This document shows, piece after piece, positions 40,998 through 48,887 of a stretch of 64,000 bases of DNA; within the stretch, counting starts at the first letter, position 1, and every line of letters starts with the position of its first letter. Origin of the DNA: Escherichia phage A4. Location: the sequence record ON286972, one strand, 5' to 3'. The notes under the pieces were generated by a model. The model was not told the origin of the DNA and searched no databases. It saw only the letters and a list, made by a program, of their open reading frames with translations. The translations under genes were made by a program, and so were the position numbers.

Positions 40998-41615
40998 ATG
41001 ACTACATCACAAAAGTACTGGTGGATTTTGGGACACCCTGAATTTATCAATAAAGACTACGTTGATGCTCGCATTGATGTTGAGCCACACGATGTATGTC
41101 CCATCACAAATCGAATTGAAGATTATCCGGCCCTGAATACAAAAACACAGTACTGGATCGAAATGCTAACTCCGTTTTTCGATGAAGACGAAGGGAAGTT
41201 CGTTCGTGGACATGAGTACGAGTTGGATTGTGGTGGTGATACATATGAAGAAGCAATTGATAATTTATACACCAAGATCCTAGAAAAGTACGGTGATTAC
41301 ACACAAGAAGAAGCGGAAGCTAAGTATGATGCTGTACATCAGCGTGTAGTGACGAAAAGTGCTTTTCCTTCATCAATGTTCCAACCAGAAGAACTTCGTA
41401 ACACATGGGAGAACTCAAAATTATCTGAAATTGAACGTGATTATATTCCAGGTGATATTGAAAACATTAAAGGTACAATAAAAGCCTTGAAAGAATTCCT
41501 CAAAACTTGTACAATAGAAGAACAAGAAGAGGCAAACAAACATTTACAATCCGAGGAATGTAAACTATGGGTGCTTGAGGAATCACTTAGAAAAGGCATA
41601 GACTACAACATATGA
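40998..41615 (+). CDS. Hypothetical acidic protein (205 aa)
   Basis: Track ORF. Confidence 0.5.
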   Translation: MTTSQKYWWILGHPEFINKDYVDARIDVEPHDVCPITNRIEDYPALNTKTQYWIEMLTPFFDEDEGKFVRGHEYELDCGGDTYEEAIDNLYTKILEKYGDYTQEEAEAKYDAVHQRVVTKSAFPSSMFQPEELRNTWENSKLSEIERDYIPGDIENIKGTIKALKEFLKTCTIEEQEEANKHLQSEECKLWVLEESLRKGIDYNI

Positions 41616-41980
41616 ACCCGAAATTGCTTAAACTGGTAGAAGAACTCCGTGAGATGCCGCCGATTGAACAAGTTGGCAATTACAAACGGTATAGAGTAAT
41701 TGCTCGTGCACTGGATAAGAAAGGTCGAGTACTGGCTACTCGTACCAACTCTTACACACAGACTCACCCTAAGCAGAAAGGCTTTGCAATTCGTGCGGGT
41801 CGCCCTCAAGGGGAATTTTTACACGCTGAAATTTCGTGTCTTCTTGCTGCTCGTGCTGAAGTACATACTCTTCTTATCGCTCGTGTAAGTAAAGATGGAA
41901 TTCCAGTTCCAGCAAAACCTTGTGAGATTTGTACATTAGCAATTCAGGAGTACGGGGTAAAAGAGATTATCCATACATGA
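41612..41980 (+). CDS. Small CDA-fold zinc deaminase-like protein
   Basis: HAE and PCEIC zinc-ligand motifs in a 122 aa protein, distinct from cd. Confidence 0.55.
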   Translation: MNPKLLKLVEELREMPPIEQVGNYKRYRVIARALDKKGRVLATRTNSYTQTHPKQKGFAIRAGRPQGEFLHAEISCLLAARAEVHTLLIARVSKDGIPVPAKPCEICTLAIQEYGVKEIIHT

Positions 41981-42198
41981 AAATTGAACGATATCAGCAC
42001 CATACTGTACTGTTTGGTGAATCAATAATGTACTATTATATTTTTGAGCCAAAACATTCGTTACAAATAACTATATACGAAAATGGTAAATTTAAAGATA
42101 CCAATTTCCCATTACATGAATTGGCATTATATTCCAGTACTGATCACTTTAAGCATTTAGTATTTGTATATTGTATTCCAAATGAAAACGAGGAATAA
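41977..42198 (+). CDS. Hypothetical protein
   Basis: Track ORF 41929-42198 trimmed to ATG 41977 (ATGA overlap). Confidence 0.4.
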   Translation: MKIERYQHHTVLFGESIMYYYIFEPKHSLQITIYENGKFKDTNFPLHELALYSSTDHFKHLVFVYCIPNENEE

Positions 42199-42200
42199 CT

Positions 42201-42611
42201 ATGTTAGAAGATGAGTTTCTAAAATTAAGTAGAAAGATATTTGATATACTAGGTGATGAAACAGATTTCAATCTAAGCGATAAAGATATCCCATTGGAAG
42301 ATGGTGGTTTCTTTTTCGCATTTGGATCTACGTATAATCTGGATATTTCAAAGCCTATCAGTGATGATAGTGATTATACTGCAACAACATATTTTGATTT
42401 CCAGCTTAATGGACACAAAGAGCGTTTACTAACGTACAGACGTAAAGGTAGTTTCAATAGAACCGAGATTACATTAATGGATTTTGAGAAACGCATCGAA
42501 CTCGCGAAGAAACATCCATTCATCAGTACTCATGCGTTTAATAGGCTAATCGATCTATTAGACAGTTATCCAGAGACAATACGAGGGTCATTACGTTTAA
42601 ATGCAGATTGA
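42201..42611 (+). CDS. Hypothetical protein (136 aa)
   Basis: Track ORF. Confidence 0.5.
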   Translation: MLEDEFLKLSRKIFDILGDETDFNLSDKDIPLEDGGFFFAFGSTYNLDISKPISDDSDYTATTYFDFQLNGHKERLLTYRRKGSFNRTEITLMDFEKRIELAKKHPFISTHAFNRLIDLLDSYPETIRGSLRLNAD

Positions 42612-42786
42612 AATTTTTAAAAAAGAATATGATGGTGAAAGTATCTGTGATATCCAACGTGATGTACATGAAGCGTTTAATTCCAGATTCAATCCATTAG
42701 TTGCTCAAATTCCACAAGATGAGTATGGATTCCAGGAAGGTACATTTACTGTAACTATTACATGGAGTCCAGATGAGACTAATTAA
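42601..42786 (+). CDS. Hypothetical protein (61 aa)
   Basis: Track ORF. Confidence 0.4.
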   Translation: MQIEIFKKEYDGESICDIQRDVHEAFNSRFNPLVAQIPQDEYGFQEGTFTVTITWSPDETN

Positions 42787-42865
42787 ACTATTCATTGGTT
42801 GCAGTGCAATTGCAATTTATATGTTATGCTAATCTGGTCAGTTGTTATTTTGTCTATTCTATAAA

Positions 42866-42890
42866 GCACCCAAGTGGTGCTTTTTGTGTT
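42866..42890 (+). terminator. Rho-independent terminator
   Basis: Hairpin gcacc-caagt-ggtgc followed by TTTTTGTGTTT. Confidence 0.55.
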
Positions 42891-43019
42891 TGTACAGTAC
42901 TTAATCAATTGCACTTTTCCTTGATTTAGGTCAAGAGAAAAAGGCCAATATGAGGCTATAATGCTCTTTGTTGAAGTTAAATAAATTCACCCAAACGAAT
43001 AACATACAAGGAATGTGAA

Positions 43020-44825
43020 ATGCAAATAGATAAATTATATACGGACGTAACTAACTTCCTCAACCAGAGTAACGCTGATTTAACAAACGAAAATGCAAAT
43101 AAAGACGCTAAATGTGTTAATACACATCGTGATTTATTGGCAGGTATTCTTTCTAAACATTATTCCCAAGATGTGATTCCTGATGAATTGATGAAGTGGC
43201 ATAATGAAGGTTACGGTCATATTCATGATTTAGACTATTACATTAGCCCATTAACAAACTGTTGTTTAGTTAATTATCCTGATATGCTTGCTAATGGCTT
43301 CATGATTGGTTGTGCCAAGATTGAAGAACCAAAAAGCTTTGGGGTAGCTTGTACAGTACTAACACAGATTGTTCAGGCTGTTGCAAGCTCACAGTACGGT
43401 GGTCAGTCGTTGGCTCACATTGACACTGGCCTTGCACCATATGTACAAAAGTCATGGAATAAACTTCTAGAAAAACAAAAGAAATACAATCTTAGTACTG
43501 AATTCATTGAAGATGAGTTGCGTAAGGAAGTTTATGACGGTTGTCAAACAATTCTATATCAAACAAACTCAATGATCAGTACTAATGGTCAGGCTGCGTT
43601 CATTTCTTTAAGTTTAGGATTAGGTACATCTAAATTTGAAAAACTAATCACTGAACAATATTTGAAAGTACATGAAAATGGACTAGGTAAAGATAAGATT
43701 ACTCCAGTATTCCCTAAAGTAATATTCTTTCTTCAGGATGGAATTAATATGAACAGTACTGATTGTAATTATGACTTAAAACAATTAGCTATGCGTTGTG
43801 CAGCTAAACGCATCTATCCTGATTTTGTATCAGTACCTTTGAATCAAAAAGTTACTGGAAGCACAACTATTCCTGTTACTCCGATGGGATGCAGAAGTTT
43901 CTTAGGGAAATGGGAAAATACACAAGGAGAAGAAAAATACAATGGTAGATTCAACCTTGGCGTTGTGTCTATCAACTTACCACTAATTGCTCTTGAGAGT
44001 GAGTCTGATGGTGATTTCTTTGATAAGATTGACGAGCACATGAATATTGCTTACAGAGCACAGATGAACCGTGTAGAACGTTTAAAAGGTACAAAGGCAA
44101 AACAAAACCCTATACTTTTCGCTGAAGGTGCGATTGCACGTCTTGATCCTGAAGACACTATTGACCATTTATTTTATAATGGTTATGCTAGTATCAGTAT
44201 TGGTTATGTTGGGTTATCTGAGTGTTCAGAGATCCTCACTGGTTCAATTAGTAAAGAGTTCTGTATGAGTATTTTGAACTACATGAAAGCAAAATGTGAT
44301 GAATTCAAAAAAGAGAGTAACATTGCATTTAGTCTTTACGGTACACCAGCAGAATCACTATGTTATAAATTTGCACGTTGTATTGAGGCAAAACATCCTT
44401 CAGTACTGAAACGTGACTTTATCACTAACTCATTCCATCAACCAGTATGGGTTGAAAGTACACCTTTTGCTAAATGGGATTATGAGGAAAACTTTGCTTA
44501 TCTAAGCAATGGTGGTAATATTAGCTATGTCGAAACACCAAATCTAGCTAATAATATACAAGCACTAGAAACATTAATAAATTTTGCTTATACTAAAATT
44601 CCATATTTTGGTATTAATCAGAAGGTCGATAAGTGTTTTGAATGTGATTTTGAGGGTGAATTTAGTGTAGATAAAAATGGTTTCCATTGTCCGGTATGTG
44701 ACAACCGCAATGAACGCACAATGTCGGTTATTCGCAGAGTATCAGGATATCTTAGTGCACCAAATAGTCGCCCGTTCAATAAAGGTAAACAAGCTGAAGT
44801 TATTCAACGTATACAACACATGTAA
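43020..44825 (+). CDS. nrdD: Anaerobic ribonucleoside-triphosphate reductase
   Basis: 601 aa; C-terminal Cys cluster CPVCDNRNERT and glycyl-radical motif RRVSGYL; uninterrupted. Confidence 0.9.
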   Translation: MQIDKLYTDVTNFLNQSNADLTNENANKDAKCVNTHRDLLAGILSKHYSQDVIPDELMKWHNEGYGHIHDLDYYISPLTNCCLVNYPDMLANGFMIGCAKIEEPKSFGVACTVLTQIVQAVASSQYGGQSLAHIDTGLAPYVQKSWNKLLEKQKKYNLSTEFIEDELRKEVYDGCQTILYQTNSMISTNGQAAFISLSLGLGTSKFEKLITEQYLKVHENGLGKDKITPVFPKVIFFLQDGINMNSTDCNYDLKQLAMRCAAKRIYPDFVSVPLNQKVTGSTTIPVTPMGCRSFLGKWENTQGEEKYNGRFNLGVVSINLPLIALESESDGDFFDKIDEHMNIAYRAQMNRVERLKGTKAKQNPILFAEGAIARLDPEDTIDHLFYNGYASISIGYVGLSECSEILTGSISKEFCMSILNYMKAKCDEFKKESNIAFSLYGTPAESLCYKFARCIEAKHPSVLKRDFITNSFHQPVWVESTPFAKWDYEENFAYLSNGGNISYVETPNLANNIQALETLINFAYTKIPYFGINQKVDKCFECDFEGEFSVDKNGFHCPVCDNRNERTMSVIRRVSGYLSAPNSRPFNKGKQAEVIQRIQHM

Positions 44826-44834
44826 GGAGATATT

Positions 44835-45197
44835 ATGTCAATTCAAGGTAAACAAGTCATGTCTGGTGAGCACCGTGGAACTATCATGCTAATAGAAAAT
44901 GATATTGCACGTATTATTGTATCAAAGACCTTTTCTGAAGATGATGAAGTACTTTTGAGTACTTTTGATGGTGAGGTACTGCGTGATGTGGAAATTCAAC
45001 ACGCACCGAATATTGAAGGTGGGCAGCACTTGAATGTAAATGTTCTATCTAAAGAACAACTCATTGATGCACAAAATAATCCAGAAAAGTATCCGCAACT
45101 TACAATTCGTGTTAGTGGTTATGCAGTTCGTTTCAATTCACTAACAAAAGAACAACAAGATGATGTAATCAATCGTACTTTTACTAAAGGTCTATGA
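44835..45197 (+). CDS. grcA: Autonomous glycyl-radical cofactor (GrcA/YfiD-like)
   Basis: [11 protein letters not shown] and [35 protein letters not shown] are near-identical to recalled E. coli GrcA/PFL C-terminus. Confidence 0.85.
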
Positions 45198-45529
45198 TGG
45201 ACTTAAAACCAATTGTAGTTAACAAATATAAAGAACCATATGATGTGTATATTGGTCGTGGGTCTAAATGGGGAAATCCATTTACCCACATTAATGACAA
45301 ACAAACAAAGGCAGAGTTTATAGTTCCGACACGAGAAGAGTCGATTGAGAAGTTCAGAGAGTATCTTATCCAAAGAATTGAAAATGGTGAGGTTACTATC
45401 GAAGAACTACTTGAATTGGCTGGGAAGCGTCTTGGGTGCTTTTGTAAGCCAAAATCATGTCATGGTGATGTTCTTGTAGAAATAGTGAGTGCAATATTAG
45501 ATGAATTACCAGACGATAATCAAGGATGA
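45194..45529 (+). CDS. DUF4326-like protein
   Basis: [15 protein letters not shown] and [13 protein letters not shown] motifs recalled as typical of that family. Confidence 0.55.
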
Positions 45530-45980
45530 TTTAGTTAATGGGGAGGGAGTTAGATGCTCCCTTTTTGTTTCAGGGTGTAGCCACGGATGTGAAGAATGCT
45601 TCAACGAAAAAGCATGGGATTATCGCAGTGGTTCAGAATTCAGTACTGAAACAGTTGAAATCATCCTGAATGAACTTAACAAGCCATATGTACAAGGATT
45701 ATCCCTTTTAGGTGGTGATCCATTGATGCCAAAGAATATCAGTACTGTTATTGAGTTATGTAAAGTAGTAAAAGAAAAATATCCAAATAAAGATATTTGG
45801 TGCTGGAGTGGTTATACTTTAGAGGAAATAATAAATAATCATGCCTCCGCAATACTAGAGTACATTGATGTATTAGTTGATGGTAAATTTATTCTTGAAG
45901 AAAAGAATTTAGAATTACCATTTAGAGGCTCTAATAATCAACGTATTCTTCGTAAAGGAGTAGATTATGCGTTATCTTGA
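45501..45980 (+). CDS. nrdG: Anaerobic ribonucleotide reductase activating protein (radical SAM)
   Basis: [24 protein letters not shown] (CxxxCxxC) and GGDPL; parallels recalled T4 NrdG N-terminus. Confidence 0.85.
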   Translation: MNYQTIIKDDLVNGEGVRCSLFVSGCSHGCEECFNEKAWDYRSGSEFSTETVEIILNELNKPYVQGLSLLGGDPLMPKNISTVIELCKVVKEKYPNKDIWCWSGYTLEEIINNHASAILEYIDVLVDGKFILEEKNLELPFRGSNNQRILRKGVDYALS

Positions 45981-46125
45981 TATTATTTCTGAAAAGATAC
46001 AGAAACGTGGAAATGAGTGGGTTGTTACTGACCACACAGGGAAGAAAGTTCTCGGTCGTCACCCAACCAGAAAAGAAGCACTTAAACAATTAAGAGCAGT
46101 TGAATTTTCTAAACACGGCGGTTAA
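45967..46125 (+). CDS. Small hypothetical protein (52 aa), below the ORF-track cutoff
   Basis: ATG 6 nt after AAGGAG; MRYLDIISEKIQKRGNEWVVTDHTGKKVLGRHPTRKEALKQLRAVEFSKHGG. Confidence 0.4.
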   Translation: MRYLDIISEKIQKRGNEWVVTDHTGKKVLGRHPTRKEALKQLRAVEFSKHGG

Positions 46126-46133
46126 TATGAAGA

Positions 46134-46157
46134 AGCACCCTTTGGGTGCTTTTTTTA
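46134..46157 (+). terminator. Rho-independent terminator
   Basis: Hairpin agcaccc-ttt-gggtgct followed by TTTTTTT. Confidence 0.6.
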
Positions 46158-46164
46158 TACTATT

Positions 46165-46172
46165 ATAAATAC
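46165..46172 (+). promoter_or_regulatory. T4-type late promoter TATAAATA
   Basis: Exact TATAAATA about 30 nt upstream of the 894 aa gene. Confidence 0.55.
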
Positions 46173-46202
46173 ACTATGGATATCTAGATAAAAGGGATAT
46201 AT

Positions 46203-48887
46203 ATGGCAAAGAAAATATATGGTGGCATTGATGTTACACATAATGTAACAGTCAAAGGTAAGAGAAGTGTTCAGAGCATCAATGATAACGTATTTGATGA
46301 AAATGGCAATCTCACAATAGATGCATATACACAAGATGATATGCTGGAAATGGTTGGTATGTTACCCATTTCTCGTTATGGTACACAAAACTATCTACCT
46401 GCTGGTGTCAATGGTACAACAGTTGGTTCTTCAGAAAATACTAAATCCAGAAATACAAAATTATTTTTGGAAGATGATAACACTTTAGTAATGCTACGTC
46501 CTGGTACAAATGGGAGTACACAAGGGGTTTATTATAGTTATATGACCCAGGCGGTTGGTACAACAAATACAAGTCGTATGGTTAATACTACTCGTGCATA
46601 TAAACCAAATTATTTTGGTGATTATTATGCATACCATTTATATTCATGTAGTGATGATATTACATGTGGTATGGCAAGTAATGGTTCAATTAATAAACTT
46701 TTTGTATCCGTTAATAATGGCACAATGAACGATGCAATGCATACCGGAATTTTAATTGATGACTATGCTTCAGTTAGGCCAATTGGTGAAGTACAATTTG
46801 TTATTCGTGCAGAAGATGGTGCATTATACTTTTTCAGTTTAGATACACCAAGCAATACTCTTAAAATATCAGTGGTTAAAGTTACTTTTAGTCCAAGTAA
46901 TAACCCAGGTGGTGGTACTTATAGTGTTACTAGAATTACTGGTTGGGCCACAAGAACTTTTTATAATGCAATGGTATATGATGACAATATTGTTCCAACT
47001 ATGAAAATAAATTCAACAAATACCAATGATAATCCATACGTTTTAATTCCAAGTGGTATTATTGGGTTTGGTATTTATATGACAGACCCAGATTTATATG
47101 TTGCACAGAAATCAGGTACAACTACATTTAAATTTAGATTATGTGGCGATATGTGGATGACTAACGGCAGATATGATATACGACCACAACACAGTTTTAG
47201 TATGACTTTTGATATTGCTACTAAGCAATGTGCATTGGATAATATGACAACTACTACACCAGTTGCTGTTTATGATAATGGTACAAGCATGAATGAATCT
47301 GGTCCATGTTTAACAACTGACCCGTTTTATCTTCACGCAGGTGGACGTAACATTTTCAGTAATTATTGCTATGTTCCATCAACTGGGGATGCGTTTTGCT
47401 CATTTTCACCAAACCTTGCAGAAGCATTGAATATATCATATGCAAAATACCCACCCAAATCATTATTTGATTTAATGGATGTTAGAAGTGTATCGGCAAC
47501 TGATTTTATTAATGGTGTCGTATCACCAAGATTTGGTTCAGCAGTTGGTTCATTCCAAGTGGGTGTGGAGTTATTACCAAATAACAGTACTAAGCAATAT
47601 TCAAGACGTTCAGGTGATGGTCGTTTTTATCCATCCTATGCTGTACATAAAGCTACCCCGAACTTTACATTTAAGTCTCTAGACTATGGTAATGTTCTTG
47701 GCTATGAACCAACACCAGACCGAGCGTTTATAACTACACCAGAATCTAGAATTTTTATAAGTTCAATTTCTGGTTCAACGGTAACGACTAATGGTGGTGT
47801 TTTGGTGGCTGATAATAGAACATCAACGCCAATTAGTTTTGATTATAAAGGTAATGTACTGAATAATGGTACAATCAGTATGTCACAAGATATAATGAAT
47901 TCCATTAGAAATTCCGAATTTGCTAAAGTTGCTAGTTCATGGAATATATCACCAGCATCAATAAAAACATTATCTGTATTTGTTCCACAACAAACTGATA
48001 TTCCTGTTTTTGGTGTTCTTGCAGCATCTACTACAGCCCGTGGTCTATATATTCGAGTTGTTGAATTGAATGTCAATACAAGAACTGGTGATATTACAAC
48101 ATGGTCGTTCAAACGTTTAGTACATGAAAGTGTTCAAGCTGGGGATTACAAAACAGATACCGCATATCATCTTGATAGTGGAAGTATTGGTATTACTATA
48201 TATGATGCGGGTTCTTTCTACTTCATTGGTGGTGGTATTCCTGGTTTCTTTAATACAGTTGGTAATACAAACTCTCCATTTTTCCGTGCTACAGTGGATA
48301 AAGCGACAGCCCAATTTAATAATTTCCATATAGCTGGTGCACGTCCGATCTATGCATTAGATGGTCAACCATTCGCTTTACCTAACATTGGGTTTGGTAT
48401 TCTTCAAAGTATAGATAATAATAACAAAACAATTTTTAGAACATATGGTACAACATTAGCGGATTATAATGCATGGACTGATAAAGGAAATCCATTTATA
48501 TGTCTTGTTTCCCAAGATGTTGCTCAAGGTTTTATTATATACTTCACCGAAGAGACACCAGTACTGATATCCGGTAAACACTATACATTACCAATATCAA
48601 ATATAGATTTAACAACTGTGAAAGCAAATCCTGCCAATACTACATTTTATGTGTATATTAAATTAGTACAGGGTATTGCAAACTATCATATATCAACAAC
48701 TGAATTAGCTGAAACTCATTCAATATTCTGGATTGGTACAGTGAAAACTGATAATTTACAAATAACCGAAATTAATATAGAAAAACGTTCTCGTTTAGAC
48801 CTGTTTGGTTCATCATTCAACGCTGCCGGAAGTTCCTTCCCAGTAAGTTCTGGGTTCCCTTCAAGTTCTGGTAATGTGAATTGGTAA
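46203..48887 (+). CDS. Large late (structural, fibre-like candidate) protein, paralog A
   Basis: 894 aa behind a late promoter; N- and C-terminal regions similar to 49499-52240. Confidence 0.6.
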   Translation: MAKKIYGGIDVTHNVTVKGKRSVQSINDNVFDENGNLTIDAYTQDDMLEMVGMLPISRYGTQNYLPAGVNGTTVGSSENTKSRNTKLFLEDDNTLVMLRPGTNGSTQGVYYSYMTQAVGTTNTSRMVNTTRAYKPNYFGDYYAYHLYSCSDDITCGMASNGSINKLFVSVNNGTMNDAMHTGILIDDYASVRPIGEVQFVIRAEDGALYFFSLDTPSNTLKISVVKVTFSPSNNPGGGTYSVTRITGWATRTFYNAMVYDDNIVPTMKINSTNTNDNPYVLIPSGIIGFGIYMTDPDLYVAQKSGTTTFKFRLCGDMWMTNGRYDIRPQHSFSMTFDIATKQCALDNMTTTTPVAVYDNGTSMNESGPCLTTDPFYLHAGGRNIFSNYCYVPSTGDAFCSFSPNLAEALNISYAKYPPKSLFDLMDVRSVSATDFINGVVSPRFGSAVGSFQVGVELLPNNSTKQYSRRSGDGRFYPSYAVHKATPNFTFKSLDYGNVLGYEPTPDRAFITTPESRIFISSISGSTVTTNGGVLVADNRTSTPISFDYKGNVLNNGTISMSQDIMNSIRNSEFAKVASSWNISPASIKTLSVFVPQQTDIPVFGVLAASTTARGLYIRVVELNVNTRTGDITTWSFKRLVHESVQAGDYKTDTAYHLDSGSIGITIYDAGSFYFIGGGIPGFFNTVGNTNSPFFRATVDKATAQFNNFHIAGARPIYALDGQPFALPNIGFGILQSIDNNNKTIFRTYGTTLADYNAWTDKGNPFICLVSQDVAQGFIIYFTEETPVLISGKHYTLPISNIDLTTVKANPANTTFYVYIKLVQGIANYHISTTELAETHSIFWIGTVKTDNLQITEINIEKRSRLDLFGSSFNAAGSSFPVSSGFPSSSGNVNW

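What the first reader, a model, noticed from the sequence alone, without database searches (positions are those of the whole stretch)
44835..45197. GrcA/YfiD-like stand-alone glycyl-radical protein between nrdD and nrdG
The 120 aa product is near-identical over its C-terminal ~60 residues to the E. coli GrcA glycyl-radical module ([43 protein letters not shown]), as recalled from memory. It sits between the anaerobic RNR catalytic subunit and its activase, with a DUF4326-like gene (45194-45529) also inserted. In E. coli GrcA restores activity to oxygen-cleaved pyruvate formate-lyase; a phage copy here suggests the phage supplies a spare radical domain for host PFL, or possibly for its own NrdD, during infection.
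Basis: partly seen in the sequence, partly recalled or inferred. Interest (0 to 1): 0.6.

Follow-up and report, generated by a model that had tools for sequence, protein, structure and literature searches.

The report
Phage spare part for pyruvate formate-lyase
A giant phage of enteric bacteria carries, inside its anaerobic ribonucleotide-reductase operon, a small copy of the radical-bearing tail of the host enzyme pyruvate formate-lyase; T4 has a tested relative, so the gene itself is ordinary and only its place in the operon is mildly interesting.

Summary
Window 44835-45197 (+) encodes a 120-aa stand-alone glycyl-radical protein. Its last 60 residues are 48/60 identical to both E. coli GrcA and the PflB C-terminus, and the RVSGYAV loop (Gly95) is intact. 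It lies between an intact nrdD and nrdG, followed by a DUF4326 gene, in a tightly packed unit flanked by two terminator-like hairpins with T-runs.

The window is not T4-like. It comes from a ~350-kb jumbo phage of the Asteriusvirus/RaK2-like group.

The family is known. About 1,580 phage records carry a homologue, and T4 Y06I (gene vs.6) was shown in 2001 to be activated by PFL activase and to restore oxygen-cleaved PFL. Orthologues at this same position are already annotated in published jumbo phages.

The module is PFL-type, not NrdD-type: 14/36 identity to the phage's own NrdD tail, and no zinc ribbon. Repair of NrdD is therefore unlikely.

The modestly new point is linkage. grcA sits in the nrdD/nrdG cluster across several jumbo-phage genera and, in a different order, in Aeromonas T4-like phages. 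It was linked in none of about 24 bacterial grcA loci. The NrdD carries the residues of formate-using enzymes, and PFL makes formate. I infer that the phage protects its reductant supply. Interest is low to moderate.

The parts
42863..42893 (+). Intrinsic-terminator-like hairpin (AAAGCACC / GGTGCTTT) with a T-rich tail. It closes the upstream unit and marks the left boundary of the nrd unit.
   Evidence: Terminator scan; sequence read directly.
43020..44825 (+). nrdD: class III (anaerobic) ribonucleotide reductase catalytic subunit, 601 aa. It is intact and has its own glycyl-radical site (Gly576 in RRVSGYLS), a Cys4 zinc ribbon, and a finger loop with Met289-Gly-Cys291.
   Evidence: Pfam NRDD 8e-163. 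NCBIfam PRK09263 767.9 bits, above the 657 cut-off. Residue mapping onto E. coli NrdD: N174/C175, M382/C384, G681 and C644/647/662/665 are all conserved.
44824..44829 (+). Shine-Dalgarno sequence AAGGAG for grcA, 5 nt upstream of the ATG and overlapping the nrdD stop codon.
   Evidence: Read directly from the sequence.
44835..45197 (+). grcA-like gene: a 120-aa stand-alone glycyl-radical protein of the phage Y06I/Vs.6 family. Residues 54-120 correspond to the PFL-type glycyl-radical domain; residues 1-53 form a phage-type N-terminal half.
   Evidence: Pfam Gly_radical 1.9e-17. PDB hits PflB 4.6e-30 and YfiD 5.7e-30. PHROG 1209 173 bits over the full length. AF2 model with YfiD 6owr and PFL as best fold matches. 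dN/dS below 1 in both halves.
45117..45119 (+). Codon GGT for Gly95, the predicted radical glycine. It is equivalent to PflB Gly734 within RVSGYAV.
   Evidence: Alignment A1; invariant in all 10 sequences and in all 48 of alignment A3.
45194..45529 (+). DUF4326 gene, 111 aa. Its start overlaps the grcA stop (ATGA). It is a homologue of T4 NrdA.1 according to the annotation of phage Muenster. Function unknown.
   Evidence: Pfam DUF4326 5.4e-25; PHROG 464; Muenster annotation note.
45501..45980 (+). nrdG: radical-SAM activase of class III RNR, 159 aa. It overlaps the end of the DUF4326 gene by 29 nt.
   Evidence: TIGR02491 201.4 bits, above the 126.1 cut-off. 66/149 identities to E. coli NrdG, but only a 48-residue local match to PflA.
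45967..46125 (+). Small ORF (52 aa) that overlaps the nrdG end. It is the last gene before the terminator. Function unknown.
   Evidence: ORF list; PHROG 3684, 1.4e-17.
46133..46158 (+). Terminator-like hairpin (AAGCACCC TTT GGGTGCTT) followed on the + strand by TTTTT; taken as the right boundary of the unit. The scan itself reported this hairpin on the - strand only.
   Evidence: Sequence read directly. The hairpin itself was found by the scan.

Best explanation

Proposed mechanism:
1. Host pyruvate formate-lyase (PflB, probably also TdcE) loses its C-terminal radical loop through oxygen cleavage at Gly734.
2. The phage protein's C-terminal 67 residues copy PFL residues ~693-759: a beta strand, the RVSGYAV glycine loop and the C-terminal helix. 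This part inserts into the damaged barrel.
3. A radical-SAM activase converts Gly95 to a glycyl radical. The activase is most probably host PflA, because neither this window nor the related lytic phages encode a PflA.
4. PFL activity is restored.

Why the gene is in this operon (inference): PFL makes acetyl-CoA (hence ATP) and formate. This phage's NrdD carries the Asn-Cys and Met-x-Cys residues of the formate-using E. coli and T4 enzymes. Keeping host PFL alive during micro-aerobic infection would therefore secure the reductant for phage dNTP synthesis. That would explain why grcA is co-transcribed with nrdD and nrdG.

Status of each step:
- Shown here: homology, an intact glycine loop, operon anatomy, long-term conservation and purifying selection.
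- Shown elsewhere for T4 Y06I and E. coli YfiD: activation by PFL activase and rescue of cleaved PFL.
- Inferred: that this protein does the same, which activase is used, and the formate rationale.
For: (1) PFL-type module. phmmer gives E=4.6e-30 to PflB (query 28-119 against PflB 669-758) and 5.7e-30 to YfiD. The last 60 residues are 48/60 identical to both, and 42 of those 60 columns are invariant, including RVSGYAV. The AF2 model's best fold matches are YfiD 6owr and then PFL 2pfl.

(2) Member of the phage family that includes the characterised T4 protein. PHROG 1209 matches at full length with 173 bits. Identity to a T4-like Vs.6 is 62.9% over 116 residues. That gene lies next to Pfam 'Phage_T4_Y06J', which identifies it as Y06I. 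The rescue of cleaved PFL by Y06I and YfiD after PFL-AE activation is reported in PMC8683613, citing Wagner 2001.

(3) A real, selected gene:
- It has its own SD, and its start and stop overlap the neighbouring genes.
- dN/dS is 0.08-0.58 in the N-terminal half and 0.08-0.18 in the C-terminal half across four jumbo-phage genera or groups.
- Third-codon positions versus E. coli pflB/grcA are essentially randomised (21-25 of 60 identical; GC3 0.15), while the protein stays 80% identical. This indicates long residence in the phage under selection to remain PFL-compatible.

(4) No phage PFL core or PflA. tblastn of the window finds only the module and NrdG. Only 31 phage records hold a PflA homologue, and none of the 25 listed is a jumbo, T4-like or T5-like phage (6 more were not shown). 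By contrast, 1,584 records hold GrcA.

(5) Linkage to nrdDG is conserved and recurrent:
- ph0011 and Muenster: nrdD-grcA-DUF4326-nrdG.
- Munch: nrdD-grcA-nrdG between annotated terminators.
- Serratia phage BF: grcA between nrdD and nrdG.
- Aeromonas T4-like Aswh_1 and two 221-235-kb IMG/VR contigs: nrdD-nrdG-grcA.
- GrcA identity across genera tracks NrdD and NrdG identity.
- About 24 bacterial stand-alone grcA loci: none has nrdD or nrdG within 6 kb.

(6) Formate link. The window NrdD keeps N80/C81, M289-G-C291 and G576. E. coli and T4 NrdD use formate and have the Cys-Met pair (PMC4493059; PMC4390871). The functional connection 'PFL makes formate, class III RNR consumes it' is stated in PMC4390871.
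Against: - No experiment exists on this protein or on any jumbo-phage orthologue.
- It scores below NCBI's curated cut-off for the bacterial GrcA equivalog (TIGR04365: 127.8 versus 170 bits). Its N-terminal half differs from YfiD.
- In YfiD the N-terminal half is disordered and matters for binding cleaved PFL and for activation (PMC8683613). Here AF2 predicts an ordered beta domain (pLDDT 84-89), so recognition could differ.
- The formate rationale rests on gene linkage only. In most phages that carry the gene (T4-like and T5-like coliphages) grcA is not next to nrdDG. PBECO4-type Asteriusvirus phages lack it at this site.
- Linkage could simply reflect shared timing of expression or chance insertion.
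Confidence: 0.75

Rival explanations
1. Spare part for the phage's own NrdD. After oxygen cleaves NrdD at its glycine, the small protein replaces the lost C-terminal radical loop and is re-activated by the adjacent NrdG.
For: The gene lies between nrdD and nrdG. The glycine motifs are alike: NrdD RRVSGYL and GrcA IRVSGYA. The GRE field has speculated that spare parts for other glycyl radical enzymes may exist (PMC8683613).
Against: - Outside the RVSGY loop there is no similarity. The best local alignment to the NrdD tail is 14/36 (score 42), against 59/93 (score 290) to PflB.
- The NrdD glycine loop is preceded by a Cys4 zinc ribbon (C539/542/557/560), which the small protein lacks.
- Conservation is to PFL-specific residues over about 90 residues.
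- The homologous T4 protein works on PFL.
- A 2026 review states that formate lyases are the only GRE class with identified spare parts (PMC13450708).
Confidence: 0.04
2. Same PFL-repair role, but the radical is installed by the phage activase NrdG rather than host PflA. The operon would then be a self-contained radical kit, with one activase serving two enzyme families.
For: grcA is co-transcribed with nrdG and, in Munch, directly abuts it. The glycine-loop heptamers of NrdD and GrcA are nearly the same. No listed GrcA-carrying lytic phage encodes a PflA.
Against: NrdG is a typical 159-aa NrdG, with 66/149 identities to E. coli NrdG and only a 48-residue local match to PflA. T4 Y06I and YfiD were activated by PFL-AE. 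YfiD activation occurs on the cleaved-PFL complex and depends on PFL residues 696-733, which points to a PFL-specific activase. In T4- and T5-like phages grcA is far from nrdG.
Confidence: 0.13
3. Decoy or inhibitor. The protein occupies host PFL or titrates host PflA in order to shut down or redirect host fermentation, rather than to repair PFL.
For: Phages often encode mimics of host protein parts. The phage-type N-terminal half differs from YfiD and is predicted to be folded.
Against: The radical glycine and the whole loop are invariant in 48 homologues, and a barrel-blocking decoy would not need them. The T4 homologue restores activity. The C-terminal half is under strong purifying selection.
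Confidence: 0.05
4. Functionless remnant of a captured 3' end of host pflB or grcA.
For: It corresponds to only the last ~95 residues of PflB.
Against: It has its own SD and an intact ORF in every genus examined, and dN/dS is well below 1. Codon usage is fully phage-like (GC3 0.15). The N-terminal extension is conserved and phage-specific.
Confidence: 0.01

Closest known systems
Bacteriophage T4 Y06I (gene vs.6), a phage autonomous glycyl radical cofactor
   Same: Same phage family (PHROG 1209, full-length match). 62.9% identity over 116 residues to a T4-like Vs.6. Same length (120 aa), the same N-terminal 'G.H.GTI...ARIIVSKTF' region, and the same glycine loop.
   Different: - Genomic place: vs.6 lies between vs.7 and vs.5, far from nrdD/nrdG. 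Here the gene is inside the nrdD-nrdG unit.
- The 3' 180 nt of T4-like vs.6 are 177/180 identical in DNA to E. coli grcA. The window gene has fully phage-like codons and is equidistant (48/60) from GrcA and PflB.
E. coli GrcA (YfiD), PDB 6OWR
   Same: Stand-alone protein of ~120-127 aa. The C-terminal domain is 48/60 identical. It is the best structural match. The alignment extends back to residue 21 of the query.
   Different: - It scores below the TIGR04365 equivalog cut-off (127.8 versus 170 bits).
- The N-terminal half is only weakly similar and is predicted to be ordered, whereas YfiD residues 1-60 are disordered.
- Bacterial grcA is not linked to nrdDG (0 of ~24 loci).
C-terminal glycyl-radical domain of pyruvate formate-lyase PflB (residues ~669-760) and of TdcE
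   Same: 59/93 identities to PflB and 53/93 to TdcE. It shares the PflB-type 'SLTKEQQ' signature.
   Different: No PFL barrel is encoded. tblastn of the window with full-length PflB finds only this module.
Glycyl-radical domain of class III RNR (NrdD)
   Same: The RVSGY core of the glycine loop; both are glycyl-radical sites activated by radical-SAM enzymes.
   Different: 14/36 identities only; no zinc ribbon; a different C-terminal helix.
Short bacterial variants GrcA2 and GrcA3 (NCBIfam NF008341, NF038360; ~80 aa)
   Same: They match the C-terminal 60 residues (87.5 and 111.6 bits).
   Different: Both scores are below the cut-offs (145 and 158 bits). Those proteins lack the ~55-residue N-terminal half present here.

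Membership tests
GrcA/YfiD autonomous glycyl radical cofactor (broad sense, InterPro IPR011140-type) | A small stand-alone protein, not the 3' end of a full-length PFL gene | tested here: met
   120-aa ORF with its own SD, directly flanked by nrdD and a DUF4326 gene. No PFL barrel is encoded anywhere in the window.
GrcA/YfiD autonomous glycyl radical cofactor (broad sense, InterPro IPR011140-type) | A C-terminal ~67 residues homologous to PFL 693-759, with the RVSGYAV loop and the radical glycine | tested here: met
   Pfam Gly_radical 1.9e-17; PflB 4.6e-30; Gly95 and the loop are invariant; fold match to 6owr and 2pfl.
GrcA/YfiD autonomous glycyl radical cofactor (broad sense, InterPro IPR011140-type) | Glycyl radical installed by PFL activase; restores activity to oxygen-cleaved PFL | not testable with these tools
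   Shown for YfiD and T4 Y06I only (PMC8683613, citing Wagner 2001).
Bacterial GrcA equivalog (NCBIfam TIGR04365 'spare_glycyl') | Whole-protein score at or above the curated cut-off (170 bits) | tested here: not met
   127.8 bits, E=2.9e-37. It is a homologue but lies outside the curated bacterial equivalog.
Bacterial GrcA equivalog (NCBIfam TIGR04365 'spare_glycyl') | A disordered N-terminal half (YfiD 1-60) that mediates binding to cleaved PFL | tested here: inconclusive
   Weak sequence similarity from query residue 21. AF2 predicts an ordered beta structure for residues 1-52 (pLDDT 84-89). The prediction is unverified.
Phage Y06I/Vs.6 family (PHROG 1209) | Full-length match to the phage family profile, including the N-terminal half | tested here: met
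   173.4 bits; residues 4-119 against profile positions 2-120 of 121. 62.9% identity to a T4-like Vs.6.
NrdD glycyl-radical domain (as a candidate NrdD spare part) | Similarity to the NrdD C-terminus beyond the glycine loop, including the Cys4 zinc ribbon | tested here: not met
   14/36 identities. There are no CxxC pairs in the 120-aa protein, whereas NrdD has C539/C542/C557/C560.
Formate-dependent class III RNR (E. coli/T4 type), for the neighbouring nrdD | Asn-Cys on the bottom face and a Met-x-Cys finger loop, with no third cysteine | tested here: met
   N80/C81 and M289-G-C291 align to E. coli N174/C175 and M382-G-C384. Residue roles are taken from PMC4493059 and PMC4390871. Actual use of formate was not tested.

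The most novel reading that the evidence does not exclude
In jumbo phages, and independently in Aeromonas T4-like phages, grcA has been recruited into the nrdD-nrdG operon as a working unit. The phage activase NrdG would install the radical on both NrdD and the PFL-type spare part. The repaired host PFL would then supply the formate that the phage NrdD consumes. This would be the first activase shown to serve two glycyl-radical enzyme families, and the first viral operon that couples enzyme repair to reductant supply for dNTP synthesis.
Probability: 0.12. Interest if true: 0.6.

Novelty: new member of a known kind. Interest (0 to 1): 0.22.

Why it matters
As a gene it adds little. Phage GrcA homologues are common, and one has been characterised biochemically.

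The point worth keeping is the conserved linkage with the anaerobic ribonucleotide reductase, which is absent from bacteria. It suggests that phages infecting gut enterobacteria protect host PFL, at least in part, to keep formate flowing to their own class III RNR during oxygen fluctuations.

This gives a simple, testable link between an 'auxiliary metabolic' repair protein and phage DNA precursor supply. It also provides a natural system for asking whether an NrdG can activate a PFL-type glycine loop.

Tried and rejected
(1) NrdD-GrcA read-through fusion. In the window, nrdD and grcA are in the same frame, separated by TAA plus three codons. Coordinates show the same frame in Munch but different frames in ph0011 and Muenster. 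The shared frame is therefore chance.

(2) A phage-encoded PflA or PFL core. None is present in the window. None of the listed PflA-positive phage records is a jumbo, T4-like or T5-like phage.

(3) Sigma-70 promoter scan of 41500-46400. It found fewer sites than the shuffled controls (13 versus 20.7). A perfect TATAAT at 42957-42962 lacks a -35 element, so no promoter is claimed.

(4) Lead that PBECO4-type phages carry a second grcA elsewhere (P0060, listed with a 353-kb contig). The places shown are ordinary T4-like vs.6 loci. Whether PBECO4-type genomes hold a copy elsewhere remains untested.

(5) Linkage of grcA to nrdDG in bacteria. There was none among ~24 stand-alone loci drawn from 80 genome loci.

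(6) Recent capture from the host. This is rejected for the window gene: third-position identity to E. coli genes is at random level and GC3 is 0.15. It does hold for T4-like vs.6.

(7) The original paper on formate as the NrdD reductant (PMC41046) is not held. Reviews were used instead.

(8) Fold of the N-terminal half. Only weak KOW/SH3-like matches were found (E~0.15), so none is claimed.

Full report
**What is there**

The ORF at 44835-45197 (+) exists as described and encodes 120 residues.
- A strong Shine-Dalgarno sequence (AAGGAG, 44824-44829) lies 5 nt upstream and overlaps the nrdD stop codon.
- The grcA stop overlaps the start of the next gene (ATGA at 45194-45197).
- That gene in turn overlaps nrdG by 29 nt.
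- A 52-codon ORF overlaps the end of nrdG.
- A terminator-like hairpin with a T-run lies upstream at 42863-42893. A second hairpin at 46133-46158 is followed by a T-run on the + strand when read directly, although the scan reported it on the - strand.

The anatomy is therefore a compact five-gene unit: nrdD (43020-44825), grcA, DUF4326 gene (45194-45529), nrdG (45501-45980) and orf52 (45967-46125). No convincing sigma-70 promoter was found.

**Identity of the protein**

The similarity is far beyond chance.
- Pfam Gly_radical E=1.9e-17.
- phmmer against PDB: E=4.6e-30 to E. coli PflB (query 28-119 against PflB 669-758) and 5.7e-30 to E. coli GrcA/YfiD.

I fetched the real E. coli K-12 genes and compared them directly.
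- The last 60 residues are 48/60 identical to GrcA, 48/60 to PflB and 45/60 to TdcE.
- In a 10-sequence alignment, 42 of these 60 columns are invariant, including R92-V-S-G95-Y-A-V98.
- Gly95 is invariant in 48 homologues.
- An AlphaFold2 model (mean pLDDT 79.6) has the YfiD NMR structure, then PFL crystal structures, as its best matches in the PDB.

'Near-identical' means 80%.

**Which phage**

The window is not T4-like. Its nearest relatives are ~350-kb jumbo phages.
- Escherichia phage ph0011 (Asteriusvirus): 82.6% nt identity over the nrd region.
- UE-S1, Klebsiella K64-1, RaK2 and Muenster (Alcyoneusvirus), and PBECO4-type phages also match.
- A 24-kb piece is only ~80% identical over ~55% of its length to anything in the collection.

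**How known is it**

About 1,584 phage records carry a homologue: T4-like, T5-like and jumbo phages of enterobacteria, Aeromonas and Vibrio. Many are annotated 'autonomous glycyl radical cofactor' or, loosely, 'pyruvate formate-lyase'.
- The protein matches PHROG 1209 over its full length (173 bits).
- It is 62.9% identical to a T4-like Vs.6.
- That gene sits beside Pfam 'Phage_T4_Y06J', which identifies it as T4 Y06I.
- According to Andorfer et al. 2021 (PMC8683613), citing Wagner et al. 2001, both YfiD and T4 Y06I receive a glycyl radical from PFL activase and restore activity to oxygen-cleaved PFL.
- A 2026 review says formate lyases remain the only glycyl radical enzymes with identified spare parts (PMC13450708).

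One formal membership test fails. The bacterial GrcA equivalog model TIGR04365 scores 127.8 bits against a cut-off of 170. The reason is the phage-type N-terminal half.

**PFL or NrdD as the target?**

The module is PFL-type.
- Its best local alignment to the phage's own NrdD tail is 14/36 identities (score 42). Against PflB it is 59/93 (score 290).
- NrdD here is complete. It aligns with E. coli NrdD at N174/C175 (N80/C81), M382-G-C384 (M289-G-C291), G681 (G576) and the four zinc-ribbon cysteines.
- The small protein has no such ribbon.

Repair of NrdD is therefore unlikely (about 0.04).

**A real and old phage gene**

The third-codon positions of its conserved half are at random-level identity to E. 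coli pflB and grcA (21-25 of 60), and GC3 is 0.15 in a 35% GC genome. The protein nevertheless stays 80% identical.

dN/dS between four jumbo-phage lineages is 0.08-0.18 for the C-terminal half and 0.08-0.58 for the N-terminal half.

This is the signature of long residence under selection to stay compatible with a host partner. That partner must come from the host.
- The window encodes no PFL barrel and no PflA.
- Only 31 phage records hold a PflA homologue. The 25 listed are small records, metagenomic fragments or bacterial contigs rather than lytic jumbo, T4-like or T5-like phages; 6 more were not shown.

**Synteny**

Gene order around grcA differs between lineages.

| Lineage | Gene order |
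|---|---|
| ph0011, Muenster | nrdD-grcA-DUF4326-nrdG |
| Salmonella phage Munch | nrdD-grcA-nrdG, between annotated terminators |
| Serratia phage BF | nrdD-three ORFs-grcA-ORF-nrdG |
| PBECO4-type slurp01 | nrdD-DUF4326-nrdG, no grcA |
| Aeromonas T4-like Aswh_1 | nrdD-nrdG-grcA |
| T4-like coliphages | vs.6 unlinked to nrd genes |
| T5-like phages | in the tRNA region, unlinked |

- GrcA identity to the window across genera (90, 73.5, 75 and 66.7%) tracks NrdD (90.8, 72.7, 72.5, 72.8%) and NrdG (84.9, 80.8, 79.5, 70.5%). This fits vertical co-inheritance.
- slurp01 NrdD is 89% identical to the window protein, yet grcA is absent there. The most economical reading is a loss in that lineage.
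- In a sample of 80 IMG/VR loci, five have nrdD and nrdG within 6 kb: three jumbo phages and two contigs of 221 and 235 kb.
- In bacteria, none of about 24 stand-alone grcA loci has nrdD or nrdG within 6 kb.

Linkage is thus phage-specific. It is conserved over genus-level divergence and appears in at least two different gene orders.

**Mechanism proposed**

The shown parts are the homology, the anatomy and the conservation. The remainder is inference from the T4 and E. coli work.
1. The C-terminal domain replaces the cleaved glycyl-radical loop of host PFL.
2. Gly95 is activated, most probably by host PflA. NrdG is a possibility, at about 0.13.
3. PFL resumes making acetyl-CoA and formate.

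E. coli and T4 NrdD use formate as reductant and share the Cys-Met pair (PMC4493059; PMC4390871). The link 'PFL produces what class III RNR consumes' is recognised (PMC4390871). The operon placement is therefore best explained as securing reductant, and energy, for anaerobic dNTP synthesis when oxygen intrudes. I found no paper that makes this point for phages. My library search is limited, however.

**Caveats**

- In YfiD the N-terminal half is disordered and is needed for efficient binding and activation. Here it is phage-specific and predicted to be ordered, so recognition of damaged PFL may differ.
- Most GrcA-bearing phages do not link the gene to nrdDG.
- The protein has never been tested.

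**Verdict**

The main interpretation is right but already established for T4. The NrdD alternative and the T4-like framing are not supported. This is a new member of a known kind, and the only modestly novel aspect is its operon context. Interest 0.22.

Noticed in passing
L005:3007-3369 (T4-like phage ime09 vs.6) and L010:4001-4363, compared with E. coli K-12 grcA (L007:3067-3450, minus strand): T4-like vs.6 is a chimera. Its 3' 180 nt, from the EGGQHLN codons to the stop, are 177/180 identical in DNA to E. coli grcA (58/60 third positions). Both boundaries are sharp, and the 5' half is unrelated at the DNA level. This suggests recent recombination or gene conversion with the host gene, unlike the fully phage-like window gene.
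   Followed up: partly
Alignment A1; L004:3905-4273 (T5-like phage VSe12): C-terminal signatures differ by phage lineage and each mirrors a different host paralogue. Jumbo phages have SLTKEQQ like PflB. T4-like phages have SLTPEQQR like GrcA. T5-like and Aeromonas phages have ALTREQQ like TdcE (T5-like: 51/60 to TdcE against 48/60 to PflB or GrcA). The signal is weak but suggestive of separate origins or separate targets.
   Followed up: partly
window 45194-45529: A DUF4326 gene is embedded in the nrd operon. According to the Muenster annotation it is a homologue of T4 NrdA.1, which sits next to the aerobic RNR gene. It is absent from Munch, and a different ORF occupies the position in Serratia phage BF. 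The Aravind group predicts a rhodanese-phosphatase-like enzyme acting on ADP-ribose-derived phosphates (PMC9503650, PMC7824862). Its repeated association with RNR genes is unexplained.
   Followed up: partly
L003:1697-4285 (Escherichia phage slurp01, PBECO4-type) compared with window 43020-45980: There is a presence/absence polymorphism of grcA within Asteriusvirus-like phages. slurp01 has nrdD (89% aa identity to the window) followed after 8 nt by the DUF4326 gene, with no grcA. DNA homology with the window resumes exactly at the DUF4326 start codon. I did not check whether these phages hold a copy elsewhere.
   Followed up: partly
L016:1033-3700 (Aeromonas phage Aswh_1); L088 and L094 (IMG/VR contigs of 221 and 235 kb): In large Aeromonas T4-like phages the order is nrdD-nrdG-grcA, followed by thioredoxin and glutaredoxin genes. 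This is a second and apparently independent linkage of grcA to the class III RNR genes.
   Followed up: partly
window 44835-44990 (residues 1-52 of the protein): AlphaFold2 predicts a confident small beta domain for the N-terminal half (pLDDT 84-89), with only weak KOW/SH3-like matches in the PDB (E about 0.15). The corresponding half of E. coli YfiD is disordered in solution. The half is conserved between jumbo and T4-like phages (G.H.GTI...ARIIVSKTF).
   Followed up: partly
window 44823-44837: nrdD and grcA are in the same reading frame, separated by TAA GGA GAT ATT. Stop-codon read-through would therefore fuse them. The frame relation is not conserved (same in Munch, different in ph0011 and Muenster), so it is probably chance.
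   Followed up: yes
window 45967-46125 and 41612-41980: A conserved 52-aa ORF (PHROG 3684, function unknown) closes the nrd unit just before the terminator. A dCMP/cytidine-deaminase-like gene (Pfam 5.1e-07) lies about 1 kb upstream of nrdD. The neighbourhood is therefore a nucleotide-metabolism block.
   Followed up: no
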